A stretch of 64,000 nucleotides of DNA from a virus (Duplodnaviria > Caudoviricetes): IMG/VR virus record IMGVR_UViG_3300028364_000013. One strand, given 5' to 3'. Below are positions 3,691-37,385 of this stretch, piece by piece (the first letter of the stretch is position 1; each line of letters opens with the position of its first letter). The position numbers and the translations under genes are program-made. The notes under the pieces were generated by a model. That model was not told the origin of the DNA and ran no database searches. It was given only the letters and a program-made list of their open reading frames with translations.

Positions 3691-3742
3691 AACCTATCTG
3701 TTTAAAGATAAATAGTACAAAAAAGTACAAAATCGACTAAGG

Positions 3743-3813
3743 GAATCCATACGGGATTCGAACCCGTGCCTCCTGCCGAAAGGCAAGCGCTCTATCCGCT
3801 GAGCTAATGGACA
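3743..3813 (-). ncRNA. tRNA-like RNA whose anticodon loop is a 4-6 nt loop
   Basis: Normal D arm (GCTC..GAGC) and T arm (ACGGG-TTCGAAT-CCCGT); anticodon arm CTTGCC-TTTC-GGCAGG. Confidence 0.6.
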
Positions 3814-17630: not shown

Positions 17631-17785
17631 ATTCTTTTTATATATAAATATTCTAAAATTAGACCTCCACTAAACAAACCGTACTTGTGCTAACAGCGTA
17701 TATAAGAAATGACACATAAACATTCGTACTAAATTTAAACTTTCTGCAAGTGCCACTTCTCATATACGCAAAACGTTACCCACCA

Positions 17786-18004
17786 TTAAGGTAGTTCGGT
17801 AACAACATAGTTTATAGCCATATTTATTTCAGTTTCAATCTGAAATTTAAAGCCCTTAAATTCATACACTTTTTTATCCTTTACTTTTTCAAGGCTATAT
17901 TTTTGCAATAGTTCATATATTTCAGAAAGTGAAATACTGCTTACATTTGCTTTTATATTTAAATTTATTGTCATCATATCTTTCAATTTAACGGTGGGTA
18001 ACAC
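17786..18004 (-). CDS. Cassette-borne hypothetical protein
   Basis: Fills cassette 1, antisense to attC orientation. Confidence 0.5.
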   Translation of the reverse strand: MLPTVKLKDMMTINLNIKANVSSISLSEIYELLQKYSLEKVKDKKVYEFKGFKFQIETEINMAINYVVTELP

Positions 18005-18060
18005 TACCTAAAAACAAGTTCGTGCCTCACCAATTTTTAGCCTAAACGTTATGTGCCATA

Positions 18061-18360
18061 CTAAAACAACCATATAGCATCACAAAACCCATACTTTATA
18101 CGAGCCTCTTTCCAAAATTCTGCTTCTGCAAATTCAATACATTGGGTTTTAACTTCAAATTTTTCTAACCAACGTACTTTATCAGTAATTTCACCTCTTG
18201 CAATTCCATCACGCTTGTCGATGTAAACAAATGGTTCTACAATAAATTTACGTTTACATAAAAAAGTACGGCACATAACATTGTATAAACCCAATGCCTT
18301 TAGTGCTTTTTTGATATGATATTTCATAATTTTAATTTTAGTGTTGTTAATTAAGTTCAT
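18061..18360 (-). CDS. Cassette-borne hypothetical protein
   Basis: Fills cassette 2; reading frame starts inside attC3. Confidence 0.5.
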   Translation of the reverse strand: MNLINNTKIKIMKYHIKKALKALGLYNVMCRTFLCKRKFIVEPFVYIDKRDGIARGEITDKVRWLEKFEVKTQCIEFAEAEFWKEARIKYGFCDAIWLF

Positions 18361-18563
18361 TGATAGGCACTGTGTTTATACCTACCGTTACCTGCAAGTT
18401 TTAAAAAGAAAAAAGCCCTTCCCATCAACCGACATGCTATACAAACACCCAGCAATGCTATGACTTTCAATAAACTCAATCTTGTGACCAGCAATTTCAT
18501 AAACTTTAATTTCATCAAGTTCAAACTCATCTTTCTTTCCAAAAAGTCTTTTCCAAAAACCCA

Positions 18564-19367
18564 CTATTTTCTGTTCATAAATTCATATCCATACCACTTA
18601 TACTTGCTGTAATCAACAAGTTCTGCAGGCTTCCAGGTTTTTGTCCAGTGCTCATCAGTTTTAACGTGACCCTGGCGAACCAGTTTGAACAAATTGTTGA
18701 ATTCGTTATGATGCACGTCAAGAACTCCAGCGTTTCTACTATCGTATCCTTCAATGTTTCTAATCACAAATCCTTCAGATGAGTCAGCTCCAGTATCAAG
18801 GTCGTATCCACCAAGCAACCCTGGAGTATCAACACTTTCAACCCAAGTCATTCCCAGATTCTCTTTTAACCAATTGTCAAGCAAAACATCTTCATCAACA
18901 TCATCACGATAAAAATCTTTCAATGTTGTTTTAATAGGAATCACTGGAACCGTTGGAAAATCAAACATGGCAGCGTAGAACTGGACTTCCTCCCAAGATA
19001 ACCACTTGCCATTTTCTCTGGCAGCGAATACATAATAATAAGATTCAAGATTCTTGTAAGCAACAGAGTGAATTCCATACATGTTCTCGCCAAACAATTC
19101 AAGCTTACCAAGGTCATTTTTAATCAACTCCCAGCGTTCACGCATTGGCTTATCCCAAGGATGTGCTGTTGGAGTAACATGACTTCTGGCAAATACTCCT
19201 TCTTTTTTGAAGTGGTTATTTTGTCCATCAAGCTTTTCTGTCATTACAAGCTCTGGCATTTCAGCAAAAGCCTTGACGTAACCCTTAGGCATGAAGCGGT
19301 CATCAGATGTCGTTCCGAGCGAAATCTTTGCATGAAGGCATCTTCCATATTTATCCTAGCTACTCAT
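18564..19367 (-). CDS. RNA ligase (Rnl2-like ATP-dependent nucleotidyltransferase) with in-frame TAG at codon 4
   Basis: MSS*DKYGRCLHAKISLGTTSDD; TEKLDGQN, FGENMY, EGFVIR, FKLVRQGHVKTDEHW. ATG overlaps the upstream TAA (TAATG). Confidence 0.8.
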
Positions 19368-19555
19368 TATTTTAACTTTTTCTTAATCCTACAAAGTTCG
19401 AGATATACCTCTTCAACCTCTTCTATAAATTCATCACTATAATCTCCGCTTCCCCATGTTTCTGGGTCCAGAAATTCTCTTAAATCCTTAACAGCATCAC
19501 GAACATTAGCTCTGACACTTTCTATTTTCTCATCTGCTGTTGTAGTTGCACTCAT
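19367..19555 (-). CDS. Small hypothetical protein
   Basis: Coupled on both sides (ATGA, TAATG). Confidence 0.65.
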   Translation of the reverse strand: MSATTTADEKIESVRANVRDAVKDLREFLDPETWGSGDYSDEFIEEVEEVYLELCRIKKKLK

Positions 19556-20022
19556 CTTCTTATTCCTTTTTTGTATAATTTATAACTATTCTCTACATAT
19601 AGATAATCGTAGTTGTCAAGGCACCTATAAAGATTCGTTCTCAGAATATTTATATCATACTTGAAGTGTTCTTCGATTCCTCTGGTTATGTCATCAATTA
19701 TAACAAAATAATCAACATCATTATCGTCAATCCAGTGCTGAATTTCATCAGCTCTTCCATTGTCAAGTTCTGGTGTTAACCCGATTACTTCAGCTTCAAT
19801 TCCTCTTTTTTTGAATAGGTCTTGAAATACTTCTAAGCTTCTCGTTTTTCTCCAGGTTGATGAAACTACAATCTTACCATCAATGTGATTGGTTATTTTA
19901 TTTAATGCATCAATTGCTGCAGGTTCAAAAAGGTGACCATCAACATCTCTATTTTCTGTTGAGTTTCCCATCTTTAACCAAGAAGCCAACACTCCGTCTA
20001 TATCTAAAAATACTATATTCAT
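19552..20022 (-). CDS. HAD phosphatase of the Swiss-Army-Knife RNA-repair type (HAD_SAK_2-like)
   Basis: IVFLDIDGVL, IVVSSTWR, RADEIQHW, FVIIDD. Confidence 0.8.
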   Translation of the reverse strand: MNIVFLDIDGVLASWLKMGNSTENRDVDGHLFEPAAIDALNKITNHIDGKIVVSSTWRKTRSLEVFQDLFKKRGIEAEVIGLTPELDNGRADEIQHWIDDNDVDYFVIIDDITRGIEEHFKYDINILRTNLYRCLDNYDYLYVENSYKLYKKGIRR

Positions 20023-26020: not shown

Positions 26021-26103
26021 TGGTACACCAGGCGGGATTCCAACCCACATTTTCAGCTGCAATTACGGATAGCAATTTAGAAAAATGCCTCGGCTACTGG
26101 TGC
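26021..26103 (-). ncRNA. Degenerate tRNA-like RNA lacking a D loop, CCA encoded
   Basis: GCACCAG/CTGGTGT-ACCA; T arm GTGGG-TTGGAAT-CCCGC. Confidence 0.4.
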
Positions 26104-26125
26104 TTATTTTTATAACTTTATTTTT

Positions 26126-26699
26126 CTAAATATCTTTTTTTCTTGCAGAATTTTTATTCTTTGATTTATATGTATCTAACTGTGAATCGCAATTAGGACA
26201 AATTAATCGTAAATTATTTCTTAAATTATTACCAGCATCTCCATCTATATGGTCTAAAATAAAAACAATTTCCTTATCATTCCAAGTATTGGAATTATTA
26301 CATATATCACATCTATTTTCTTGTTCTTTTAATATGTGAGATTTAATAAAATGCATATTTCTAACATAACAAAAATCACTTTGATTATTTAAGTAATTTT
26401 CATAAAATTTATTCTTTTTATATTTTTTTTCACATATTTTACCACAAAACTTTTGATTATAATGAGTTGTTAATTTAAACTCTTCATTACAATTAAGACA
26501 GTTTACCTCTTTTTTTATTCCTTTATTATGTGGCACATGCTCAGAATTAAACTTCTTTCTTTTTCTCTAACACAATACCTAATTTAATAGCATTTCTCCT
26601 TATTGTTGTATCAGAAACTTTATATTTTTTAGCCACTTCAGTATAAGATAATTTTTCAACTATAATTAACTGATATAATTCTTCTTTATTGTATTTCAT
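26126..26699 (-). pseudogene. HTH plus HNH endonuclease with a frameshift at an A run (about 26560)
   Basis: LDHIDGD..NN...NLRLICPNC; N-terminal MKYNKEEL... in another frame. Confidence 0.7.
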
Positions 26700-36170: not shown

Positions 36171-37283
36171 TTATAAACTTTCTATTAATTGACTCATTTT
36201 CTTTAACAAATCTTCATTATATGCAATTCTTAATAATTTAATTTCACTTTTACTACAGTAATCAGTTTTAATGCTATCGTTTATTTGCGTTAATTCCAAT
36301 GCTTTTTCTCCCCCAAAATAATCAATAGACTTAAAATGTTGCCTACCATCAAATTCAATACAAATATTGTAATCAGGCAAGTAAAAATCAAATGGTAACT
36401 CCATTATATTCCTACATTCTTTAAATTTCTTCTGCCTTTCAAATTTTATTAAATTTTCTTTTAATAATTTTGAAATCCTTTTTTCTCCCTTTGACTCATT
36501 GCAATGTGGACAACCAATACCTCTAATGTGATGTGTTGGCACCTGCTCAAATTCATCGTGAACTGGGCAAATTATTTTTATTTTTGTTTTAGAGTTAATA
36601 TATTTAACAAAAGAATAATCATATTTATTCTCATGAATCAAATGTGACTCCATTATAAAATATTCTTGTGATTTTTTAAGCTTATCAGCACGCTCTATTA
36701 TAGCGCATTTATTACAACCACGCCCAGATAAATGGTCATGAGGAGTTTGTTGAAATTGTCCATGATTTGGACAAATTATTACAATTGGTTTTTTTGAATT
36801 GTTATATTCCGTAAAAGAGTAATCATATTTATTTGAATGGACACTTTGAGCTCTTACTTTGAAATCTTCGAGAGTTAACTTCATTCTATCATTCCCACAC
36901 GATGGACAACCCCTATTAGATAGGTGATTCAAAGGCATTTGATTAAATTCTCCATGATTTTGACAAATTATTGTAACTGGAGTTTTATAATTCTTATAAT
37001 TTACTTTGCTATAATTGTAGCAATCACCATGAATTGATATTGCTTTTTTTACAAATTCTTCTTTTGATAAGGATTGTTTGTATGATTTTTTTAAGTTTCC
37101 ACAACCTGGACAACCAACCCCATTAGCGTGATGAAAAGGCAATTGATTAAACACTCCATGAACTGGACATTTTATATCTATTTTAGTTCTTGCATTTTTA
37201 TATTCTACAAGACTATAATCGTAAAAATTATTATGAATTTTTTGCGCCTTTTTAATGAAGATGTTTTTGTTTTTTTCTTTCAT
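36171..37283 (-). CDS. Putative homing endonuclease: four CPxHGxFxQxPxxH..GCPxC repeats plus PD-(D/E)xK domain
   Basis: LPFDFYLPDYNICIEFDGRQH. Confidence 0.85.
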   Translation of the reverse strand: MKEKNKNIFIKKAQKIHNNFYDYSLVEYKNARTKIDIKCPVHGVFNQLPFHHANGVGCPGCGNLKKSYKQSLSKEEFVKKAISIHGDCYNYSKVNYKNYKTPVTIICQNHGEFNQMPLNHLSNRGCPSCGNDRMKLTLEDFKVRAQSVHSNKYDYSFTEYNNSKKPIVIICPNHGQFQQTPHDHLSGRGCNKCAIIERADKLKKSQEYFIMESHLIHENKYDYSFVKYINSKTKIKIICPVHDEFEQVPTHHIRGIGCPHCNESKGEKRISKLLKENLIKFERQKKFKECRNIMELPFDFYLPDYNICIEFDGRQHFKSIDYFGGEKALELTQINDSIKTDYCSKSEIKLLRIAYNEDLLKKMSQLIESL

Positions 37284-37310
37284 ACTAATAAGTAGTAAAA
37301 AATTTTCAAC

Positions 37311-37385
37311 AAGTTGTGCGCCAGGATGAATATCACGTATTGTGACTATTCTTAATTTTGAATTATTAATCTATAAGTTTTTCAT
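37311..37385 (-). pseudogene. Diverged duplicate of the Pth2-like 5' end, also with in-frame TAG (codon 5), in frame with the endonuclease
   Basis: MKNL*INNSKLRIVTIRDIHPGAQL. Confidence 0.7.

What the first reader, a model, noticed from the sequence alone, without database searches (positions are those of the whole stretch)
18564..20022. RNA heal-and-seal module whose ligase needs amber read-through at codon 4
A HAD phosphatase, a small ORF and an RNA ligase are translationally coupled. The ligase ATG overlaps the upstream TAA, and ATG AGT AGC TAG is followed in frame by the conserved DKYGR..H...SLGTTSDD segment that the annotated 242-aa ORF omits. Full-length ligase therefore appears to depend on suppression, which could restrict tRNA repair capacity to infected cells expressing tRNA-CUA.
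Basis: partly seen in the sequence, partly recalled or inferred. Interest (0 to 1): 0.8.

Follow-up and report, generated by a model that had tools for sequence, protein, structure and literature searches.

The report
Phage RNA ligase with early amber codon
A large lake-water phage that otherwise uses the normal genetic code has a real UAG stop at codon 4 of its RNA ligase gene, so the full enzyme can probably be made only when the phage's own UAG-reading tRNA is working; this makes the ligase a fourth, recently added gene in a small set with early UAG codons.

Summary
On the minus strand the ligase reads ATG AGT AGC TAG GAT. Its ATG overlaps the TAA of a 62-codon ORF, and that ORF's ATG overlaps the TGA of a HAD_SAK_2 phosphatase gene. 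The TAG is not an error: three other assemblies carry identical DNA.

The 21 codons after the TAG are near-invariant in several hundred ~266-aa homologues. They match the first residues of the T4 Rnl2 nucleotidyltransferase domain, so the 242-aa ORF is a truncated call.

The six closest relatives have CAA (Gln) at codon 4, and none of about 15 distinct orthologous loci has a TAG. The amber is therefore private to this phage. The gene is still under strong purifying selection (dN/dS 0.05).

The phage encodes a canonical tRNA(CUA). TAG still ends about 11% of its ORFs, including the ligase itself, so this is sparse suppression and not a code change.

Three other genes next to that tRNA also carry 5'-proximal TAGs: a Pth2-like gene, a methyltransferase and a homing-nuclease fusion. 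Those TAGs are conserved in relatives. This scan had already reported that cassette on the same genome (e1-5402913).

Most likely the ligase TAG is read through, probably as Gln. Whether it is an adaptive gate or a tolerated substitution is open. "Heal-and-seal" is only partly supported, because no kinase was found.

The parts
19552..20022 (-). HAD-type phosphatase gene (156 aa, HAD_SAK_2); its TGA overlaps the next ATG (ATGA)
   Evidence: Pfam PF18143 at 9.1e-27 over residues 3-136. phrog_1818. Orthologues in L001, L002 and L027-L033 lie in the same position.
19367..19555 (-). 62-codon ORF of unknown function; its TAA overlaps the ligase ATG (TAATG)
   Evidence: A 61-62-aa ORF is called at the same position in L001, L002, L030 and L031. 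No Pfam or PHROG match.
18564..19367 (-). Full-length RNA ligase frame (267 codons plus stop) with in-frame TAG at codon 4; it terminates at TAG 18566-18564
   Evidence: Translation with TAG=Q. PF09414 at 6.3e-23. 964 homologues of about 266 aa cover 100% of the query. AF2 model pLDDT 88.9. Model residues 5-236 align to T4 Rnl2 residues 3-233, Z 12.8.
19356..19358 (-). In-frame amber codon (codon 4 of the ligase), followed by G
   Evidence: Identical in L027, L028 and L029. Aligned to CAA in L001, L002 and L030-L033.
19290..19292 (-). First in-frame canonical start after the TAG (Met26); start of the truncated 242-aa call
   Evidence: The 242-aa product lacks invariant K6, R9, L11, H12, I15-T19 and S21-R24.
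34687..34758 (-). Phage tRNA with anticodon CUA (amber suppressor type): canonical cloverleaf, anticodon loop UUCUAAC, discriminator A73
   Evidence: ARAGORN. Rfam tRNA 63.2 bits, E 1.8e-12. Orthologous tRNA(CUA) genes lie next to the Pth2-like gene in L003-L006.
35674..36102 (-). Pth2-like gene with TAG at codon 3 (36096-36094)
   Evidence: Pfam PTH2 at 5.6e-10, starting at residue 9. The TAG is at the same place in L003, L004 and L005, in L006-L008, whose calls translate only with TAG=Q, and in the 519-kb phage G002 at 36% identity.
33622..34131 (-). Small methyltransferase gene with TAG at codon 17 (34083-34081)
   Evidence: The 16 codons upstream of the TAG are conserved with synonymous changes in L003 and L005. 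The codon after the TAG is GTG, ATT or ATG. The Pfam MTS match (20.1 bits) is below the family cut-off of 23.
36171..37385 (-). Copy of the Pth2-like 5' end (TAG at codon 5, 37373-37371) fused in frame to a DUF723/zinc-ribbon nuclease-like ORF
   Evidence: The N-terminus matches P0133, whose Q5 is also a TAG in the DNA.

Best explanation
The TAG at codon 4 of the RNA ligase gene is decoded by the phage's own tRNA(CUA), most probably as glutamine. This gives a full-length 267-aa ATP-dependent RNA ligase.

Ribosomes that finish the 62-codon ORF can restart at the overlapping ATG and reach UAG after three codons. Release factor 1 then ends translation with a harmless tripeptide, or the suppressor tRNA lets translation continue. 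Ligase output therefore scales with the amount of charged tRNA(CUA).

The phage is not recoded: TAG remains an ordinary stop for about one ORF in nine, including the ligase itself. The ligase amber arose recently from a Gln codon (CAA, via CAG). It makes the ligase a fourth member of a small set of genes with 5'-proximal ambers. In the other members (Pth2-like, methyltransferase, nuclease fusion) the TAGs are old and conserved.

Shown: the codon, its reproducibility, the conserved and structurally required N-terminal segment, the cognate tRNA, read-through in neighbouring genes, and purifying selection on the ligase.

Inferred: that the tRNA is charged and used at this site, that the inserted residue is Gln, and that dependence on the tRNA has regulatory value. 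I put adaptive gate versus tolerated substitution at about even odds.
For: 1. The in-frame TAG is real and reproducible.
2. The segment D5-F25 after the TAG is near-invariant in 38 homologues and present in all ~266-aa homologues. PHROG ligase profiles start matching at residues 5-6. Model residues 5-236 align to T4 Rnl2 residues 3-233 (Z 12.8) and to the NgrRnl catalytic domain (Z 12.7). Residues 9-12 form a core strand.
3. No canonical start lies between the TAG and Met26.
4. The tRNA(CUA) scores 63 bits on the general tRNA model.
5. Read-through is demonstrated by comparative evidence in the same genome. The methyltransferase codons 1-16 upstream of its TAG show synonymous-only variation in L003 and L005, and the codon after the TAG is not always a start. 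The Pth2-like TAG is conserved down to 36% identity.
6. The TAG aligns to CAA (Gln) in six close relatives. L032 and L033 are identical over the first ten codons apart from this codon.
7. dN/dS against L001 is 0.05 at dS 0.74, and window-lineage changes are 19 synonymous against 4 non-synonymous.
8. All sense TAGs found in the 117-kb record lie within the first 17 codons. The only mid-gene candidate resolves into two genes.
Against: - The amber is private: none of about 15 distinct orthologous loci has it, and this includes a complete 519-kb phage that has the amber Pth2-like gene. There is thus no comparative proof that this particular TAG is read or selected.
- The ligase also ends in TAG, with the next TAA or TGA 68 codons later. 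Fifteen of 136 ORFs end in TAG with no excess of back-up stops. Suppression therefore cannot be efficient everywhere.
- The tRNA(CUA) resembles no particular isoacceptor and has A73, so Gln identity is not established.
- The window ligase has His at a nearly invariant Cys (position 52).
Confidence: 0.7

Rival explanations
1. The TAG is a plain nonsense mutation that has inactivated, or nearly inactivated, a dispensable accessory gene. The ligase is on its way to becoming a pseudogene, and the nearby suppressor tRNA is irrelevant or gives only trace rescue.
For: The TAG is private to one phage population. Accessory RNA-repair genes are often dispensable. His replaces a nearly invariant Cys52. 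TAG works as a stop at the end of the same gene. The scan judged a private amber in a T4-like rnlB to be a knock-out (e1-317960; not checked here).
Against: There is no second lesion. Window-lineage changes are 19 synonymous against 4 non-synonymous, and dN/dS is 0.05. A random knock-out would fall within the first five codons only about 2% of the time. From CAA a single step gives TAA, whereas TAG needed two changes. The allele is identical in at least four assemblies from at least two sequencing runs. A cognate suppressor tRNA and other read-through genes exist in the same genome.
Confidence: 0.17
2. The functional product is the short form from Met26 (ATG 19292), or a product of re-initiation after the ATG-AGT-AGC-TAG mini-ORF. 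On this view the upstream codons act only as a start-stop leader.
For: ATG 19292 is in frame, and gene callers pick it in every assembly. Termination followed by re-initiation is known in tightly packed phage operons (established knowledge).
Against: The short form lacks about 20 invariant residues, including the K-Y-x-R-x-L-H and S-L-G-T-T-S-D-D-R blocks. It also lacks the equivalent of the first 23 or so residues of the T4 Rnl2 nucleotidyltransferase domain. Codons 5-25 differ from L001 by 4 synonymous and 1 non-synonymous change (the TAG codon not counted), so they evolve as coding sequence. The restart site is 63 nt downstream.
Confidence: 0.05
3. The phage is fully recoded (code 15), and TAG is simply a Gln codon everywhere, so nothing is special about the ligase.
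For: tRNA(CUA) is present. TAG aligns to Gln. Some gene callers translated relatives with TAG=Q. Recoded phages keep standard code in parts of the genome (Borges et al., bioRxiv 10.1101/2021.08.26.457843).
Against: Reading TAG as sense does not merge ORFs. Long ORFs of 1676, 671 and 478 codons have no in-frame TAG. Fifteen of 136 ORFs, the ligase among them, end in TAG directly before the next gene. Only 53% of the genome is held, so a recoded late block elsewhere cannot be excluded.
Confidence: 0.06
4. The TAG is a sequencing or assembly error.
For: None beyond the prior possibility; raw reads could not be checked.
Against: Identical sequence appears in three further assemblies from different runs and pipelines. 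The codon differs from the relatives' CAA at two positions.
Confidence: 0.01

Closest known systems
Stop-codon-recoded phages with phage-encoded suppressor tRNAs (TAG read as Gln, 'code 15': crAss-like, Lak and others; Borges et al., bioRxiv 10.1101/2021.08.26.457843)
   Same: A phage-encoded tRNA(CUA) is present. In-frame TAG sits where relatives have Gln. The genome is low in GC (34%) and TAA is the dominant stop. The case fits their proposed intermediate stage, in which a standard-code phage acquires a suppressor tRNA and in-frame stops then start to appear.
   Different: Only four or five sense TAGs occur in 117 kb, all within the first 17 codons. They lie in RNA- and translation-related genes, not in structural or lysis genes. 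TAG is still a working stop for about 11% of ORFs.
Amber-gated Pth2 cassette with suppressor tRNA in this same genome (earlier scan finding e1-5402913)
   Same: It involves the same tRNA(CUA) and the same rule of one early TAG per gene.
   Different: The cassette TAGs are ancient and conserved across relatives, down to 36% identity. The ligase TAG is 15 kb away and private to this population. It is also the only one with sense-codon orthologues, all CAA.
T4 RNA ligase 2 (Rnl2) and Naegleria gruberi RNA ligase (NgrRnl, Rnl5): solved nucleotidyltransferase domains (PDB 1S68, 2HVQ, 5COT)
   Same: The covalent nucleotidyltransferase fold matches: Z 12.8 and 12.7, 178-190 aligned residues, rmsd 3.4-3.7. 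Motif I is K45-L-D-G, and blocks resembling motifs III (FGE), IV (EGFVIR) and V (KLVR) are invariant in the family. The N-terminus of the model aligns with residue 3 of Rnl2.
   Different: Identity is only 14-18%, and a profile search of PDB sequences found nothing. The protein is a stand-alone 266-aa domain with its own short C-terminal tail, lacking the Rnl2 C-domain or the NgrRnl N-domain. It cannot be assigned to any of the named RNA ligase (Rnl) families.
T4 Pnkp + Rnl1 tRNA heal-and-seal pathway
   Same: A HAD-type phosphatase and an RNA ligase are encoded together by a tRNA-rich phage. In a distant relative the ligase sits next to an AAA_33 kinase gene (L026).
   Different: No kinase or cyclic phosphodiesterase was found in the module or in the 117-kb record. 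The HAD domain belongs to the HAD_SAK_2 family and is not fused to a kinase. Neither the substrate nor an opposing anticodon nuclease is known.

Membership tests
ATP-dependent RNA ligase / covalent nucleotidyltransferase superfamily (Pfam PF09414 RNA_ligase) | Profile match above the curated cut-off | tested here: met
   82.2 bits against a cut-off of 27, residues 39-208; confirmed by the genome search.
ATP-dependent RNA ligase / covalent nucleotidyltransferase superfamily (Pfam PF09414 RNA_ligase) | Motif I lysine nucleophile (KxDG) and motifs III, IV and V | tested here: met
   E44-K45-L46-D47-G48, F92-G93-E94, E198-G199-x-V201 and K228-x-V230-R231 are invariant or nearly so in 38 homologues. 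Assigning these blocks to motifs III-V is my own reading.
ATP-dependent RNA ligase / covalent nucleotidyltransferase superfamily (Pfam PF09414 RNA_ligase) | Nucleotidyltransferase fold shared with solved RNA ligases | tested here: met
   AF2 model pLDDT 88.9. T4 Rnl2 Z 12.8, rmsd 3.4, 183 residues aligned; NgrRnl Z 12.7.
ATP-dependent RNA ligase / covalent nucleotidyltransferase superfamily (Pfam PF09414 RNA_ligase) | Adenylylation and RNA sealing activity | not testable with these tools
   Needs biochemistry.
Code-15 (TAG to Gln) recoded phages | Phage-encoded tRNA with CUA anticodon | tested here: met
   Window 34687-34758, 63 bits.
Code-15 (TAG to Gln) recoded phages | Many in-frame TAGs spread through genes, concentrated in structural and lysis genes | tested here: not met
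   Four or five sense TAGs in 117 kb, all within the first 17 codons, and long ORFs are TAG-free. Caveat: the record is estimated to be 53% complete.
Code-15 (TAG to Gln) recoded phages | TAG no longer used as a terminator | tested here: not met
   Fifteen of 136 ORFs end in TAG, including the ligase, with the next gene abutting.
Code-15 (TAG to Gln) recoded phages | Sense TAG aligns with Gln in standard-code homologues | tested here: met
   CAA at ligase codon 4 in L001, L002 and L030-L033. This is a single site, and the position is variable in the wider family.
T4-type heal-and-seal RNA repair (Pnkp + ligase) | 3'-end healing phosphatase | tested here: inconclusive
   A HAD_SAK_2 domain is present, but its activity on RNA ends is inferred from the family name only.
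T4-type heal-and-seal RNA repair (Pnkp + ligase) | 5'-end healing polynucleotide kinase | tested here: inconclusive
   No AAA_33 match in the 117-kb record. Neighbouring ORFs have no kinase match. The genome is incomplete. A distant relative has an AAA_33 gene beside the ligase.
T4-type heal-and-seal RNA repair (Pnkp + ligase) | Sealing ligase | tested here: met
   See the RNA ligase rows above.

The most novel reading that the evidence does not exclude
5'-proximal amber codons form a small, still-growing 'amber regulon' in standard-code giant phages. One early UAG per gene ties the synthesis of enzymes that act on tRNA or RNA (Pth2-like hydrolase, methyltransferase, and now an RNA repair ligase) to the supply of a phage suppressor tRNA. 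The ligase would be a caught-in-the-act recruitment, reached through two substitutions from CAA. This would be a translational control device distinct from genome-wide recoding.
Probability: 0.3. Interest if true: 0.75.

Novelty: new variant of a known kind. Interest (0 to 1): 0.5.

Why it matters
Stop-codon suppression by phage tRNAs is known mainly as near-complete recoding of late genes. Here TAG is still an ordinary stop, and it is read as sense only at single, very early codons of a few RNA- and translation-related genes.

The ligase case adds two things that the conserved cassette cannot give:
- It is the only such TAG with sense-codon orthologues, all Gln CAA. That bears on which amino acid is inserted.
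- It is an independent, recent gain at the same kind of position (codon 4, in a disordered and variable N-terminal tail). This suggests a positional rule: early ambers are selected, or are the only ones tolerated.

It is also a practical warning for annotation. Standard gene callers truncate this ligase by 25 essential residues in every assembly that carries it.

Tried and rejected
- Global recoding: stop-to-stop ORF comparisons with TAG, TGA or TAA read as sense showed no special gain for TAG.
- The one mid-gene TAG candidate (genome 115026-117068, pieces of 332 and 347 codons) resolves into two genes. The patatin domain starts at profile position 1, 12 residues after the TAG.
- A scan for further early TAGs in short ORFs gave only implausible frames. 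Scans of relatives' flanks (L001-L005) gave none beyond the Pth2-like and methyltransferase genes.
- Other ligase genes with an N-terminal TAG: none in IMG/VR loci or in G001-G003. The short database entries P0099 and P0046 are a contig-end truncation and a mis-called start.
- Amino-acid identity of the tRNA(CUA): pairwise comparison with 111 other phage tRNAs gave no clear parent isoacceptor. The best non-CUA matches are about 70% (Ile, Arg, Trp); Gln is about 64%.
- Pyrrolysine: ARAGORN's 'tRNA-Pyl' label only reflects the anticodon. The tRNA fits the general tRNA model with ordinary D and T loops. I did not search for pyl genes.
- Context test: every sense TAG is followed by a purine. Among the 15 TAG stops the next base is A in 7, T in 5, G in 2 and C in 1. 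The sites are too few and not independent. Back-up stops after TAG stops are not enriched.
- PDB sequence profile search: no hit.
- Literature check that Tyr5 of T4 Rnl2 is essential: not found in the open library, so I do not use it.
- The DNA search of the phage collection gave only two short matches to huge uncultured phages.

Full report
**What is there**

All genes of the finding lie on the minus strand. The 156-aa HAD gene starts at ATG 20022. It ends with TGA 19554-19552, which overlaps the ATG (19555-19553) of a 62-codon ORF. That ORF's TAA (19369-19367) overlaps the ligase ATG (19367-19365).

The ligase then reads AGT AGC TAG (19358-19356) GAT AAA TAT GGA AGA and onward, in frame with the ATG at 19292 that begins the 242-aa ORF. 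No ATG, GTG or TTG lies in frame between the TAG and 19292. The ligase frame itself ends with TAG (18566-18564). Pfam assigns HAD_SAK_2 (9e-27) and RNA_ligase PF09414 (6e-23).

**Is the TAG real?**

However, the exact 242-aa product is on record from seven contigs. Three fetched loci come from different assemblies: Logan SRR6129596, JGI 3300012031 and Logan SRR6185902. All three are 100% identical to the window over 2.9-4.7 kb, including ATG AGT AGC TAG GAT. An assembly or read error is effectively excluded.

**Is the sequence after the TAG coding and needed?**

- A search of 5.8 billion proteins found 964 homologues. Nearly all of the 120 best are about 266 aa long and cover 96-100% of the read-through translation.
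- In an alignment of 38 of them, K6, R9, L11, H12, I15-T19 and S21-R24 are invariant.
- PHROG ligase profiles begin to match at residues 5-6.
- An AlphaFold2 model (pLDDT 88.9) puts residues 9-12 in a strand, and only residues 1-4 are disordered.
- Structural alignment places model residues 5-236 on residues 3-233 of the T4 Rnl2 nucleotidyltransferase domain (Z 12.8). It places model residues 4-238 on the NgrRnl catalytic domain (Z 12.7).

The 242-aa ORF therefore lacks the first 20 or so structured residues of the catalytic domain and is a truncated call. The motif I lysine (K45 in KLDG) and blocks resembling motifs III, IV and V are intact.

**What do relatives have at codon 4?**

Six close relatives (91-95% amino-acid identity; L001, L002, L030-L033) have CAA (Gln). 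L032 and L033 are identical to the window over the first ten codons except CAA versus TAG. More distant orthologues in IMG/VR records have ordinary sense codons. These include a complete 519-kb phage, and also a locus where the ligase is next to an AAA_33 kinase.

The amber is thus private to this phage population. It required two substitutions from CAA, presumably through synonymous CAG.

The gene has not decayed:
- dN/dS against L001 is 0.05 at dS 0.74.
- Changes assignable to the window lineage are 19 synonymous against 4 non-synonymous, one of which is the TAG.
- Codons 1-25 behave like the rest of the gene.

**Can the phage read TAG?**

The window encodes a tRNA with anticodon CUA (34687-34758; Rfam 63 bits; loop UUCUAAC; A73). 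The held record is 117 kb and about 53% complete.

It is not globally recoded. Reading TAG as sense does not fuse ORFs, and long ORFs have no in-frame TAG. Fifteen of 136 crude ORFs end in TAG, with no excess of back-up stops.

Scanning every TAG followed by at least 100 open codons turned up three further cases next to the tRNA:
- A Pth2-like gene that starts ATG AAA TAG.
- A copy of that gene's 5' end (TAG at codon 5) fused to a DUF723/zinc-ribbon nuclease-like ORF.
- A small methyltransferase gene with TAG at codon 17.

For these three the comparative evidence is decisive. The Pth2-like TAG is present in L003, L004 and L005. It is also present in database homologues that translate only with TAG=Q, and in a 519-kb phage at only 36% identity. 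The methyltransferase codons 1-16 show synonymous-only variation in L003 and L005, while the codon after the TAG is GTG, ATT or ATG. Read-through of UAG is therefore a real, conserved property of this phage group.

After deriving this I found that the scan had already reported the cassette on this genome (e1-5402913). My results agree with it.

**Interpretation**

The ligase TAG is most probably read by the same tRNA. It sits in the disordered, variable N-terminal tail: position 4 is Q, N, T, S, M, L or R across the family. Almost any inserted residue would be tolerated there, and failed suppression would cost only a tripeptide.

A random knock-out would rarely land in the first five codons, and from CAA it would more easily give TAA. 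The observed site and codon fit the pattern of the other amber genes much better than chance inactivation does. All independent sense TAGs in the record lie within the first 17 codons, which has a probability of roughly 8e-4 if positions were uniform over the three independent genes (my arithmetic).

Two points speak against efficient or general suppression:
- The same gene ends in TAG, with 68 open codons behind it.
- TAG-ended genes are common.

Every sense TAG is followed by a purine, and the ligase terminator is followed by T. The numbers are too small to call this a context rule.

The amino acid inserted is not established. The tRNA resembles no isoacceptor in particular, so the CAA orthology is the only pointer to Gln.

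**What remains open**

Whether the ligase amber is an adaptive gate or merely a substitution tolerated because of the suppressor cannot be decided from one private site. I put the two at about even odds.

At most it couples ligase yield to the level or timing of tRNA(CUA).

The 'heal-and-seal' label is only partly met. I found a HAD_SAK_2 phosphatase and a ligase, but no kinase in the module or in the 117 kb. The upstream 310-aa ORF gives only weak HNH-like leads.

**Verdict**

This is a new variant of a known kind: phage suppressor-tRNA read-through. It is of moderate interest as a recent, private addition to the set of early-amber genes and as the only such site with Gln-codon orthologues.

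Noticed in passing
window 34148-34295 (-) and 35574-35649 (-): Rfam's tRNA model finds two tRNAs that ARAGORN missed. One spans 148 nt, with an insertion of about 75 nt in the anticodon region (intron-like). Between the tRNAs lie further T-arm/acceptor-like fragments. Earlier scan notes e1-5402915 and e1-5402917 describe this array.
   Followed up: no
window 3741-3813 (-): ARAGORN reports a tRNA-like gene with a two-base 'anticodon' (tt). Relatives L003 and L004 have a tRNA with a four-base anticodon (gaaa) next to their tRNA(CUA).
   Followed up: no
window 26063-26599 (-): An HNH/Endonuclease VII-like ORF may start at ATG 26593, preceded by AAGGAG, and run through two early TAGs (26581-26579 and 26569-26567). 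A GTG ten codons after the second TAG is an alternative start. Undecided.
   Followed up: partly
L001 6137-6145; also L030 and L031: In three close relatives the ligase ends TAG ATG, with the next 175-aa gene in the same frame. Read-through there would fuse the two proteins. Whether those phages carry a tRNA(CUA) is unknown, because the contigs are short.
   Followed up: no
L026 1501-3407: In a more distant relative the same ligase family is followed directly by a 379-aa AAA_33 (polynucleotide-kinase-type) gene, and a NADAR gene lies upstream. This supports an RNA-repair role for the family.
   Followed up: no
L024 (G002:C1:480991-481329): A complete 519-kb phage with direct terminal repeats has a Pth2-like gene, only 36% identical, that also starts ATG AAA TAG. 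No tRNA lies within 1.5 kb of it, and its ligase orthologue has no TAG.
   Followed up: partly
window 18388-18564 (-) and 17688-18395: Downstream of the ligase the window differs from L001, L030 and L031: a 58-codon ORF with a GTG overlapping the ligase TAG replaces their 175-aa gene.
   Followed up: no
window 19552-19555 versus L001 4796-5155: Close relatives carry an extra 119-aa ORF between the HAD gene and the 62-codon ORF. The window lacks it. In L032 and L033 the 62-codon ORF is absent instead.
   Followed up: no
L019 230-1270 (genome 115029-116069, -): A patatin-like phospholipase gene (Pfam 9.5e-11) directly follows, in the same frame, a TAG-terminated 328-aa ORF with no family match.
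   Followed up: partly
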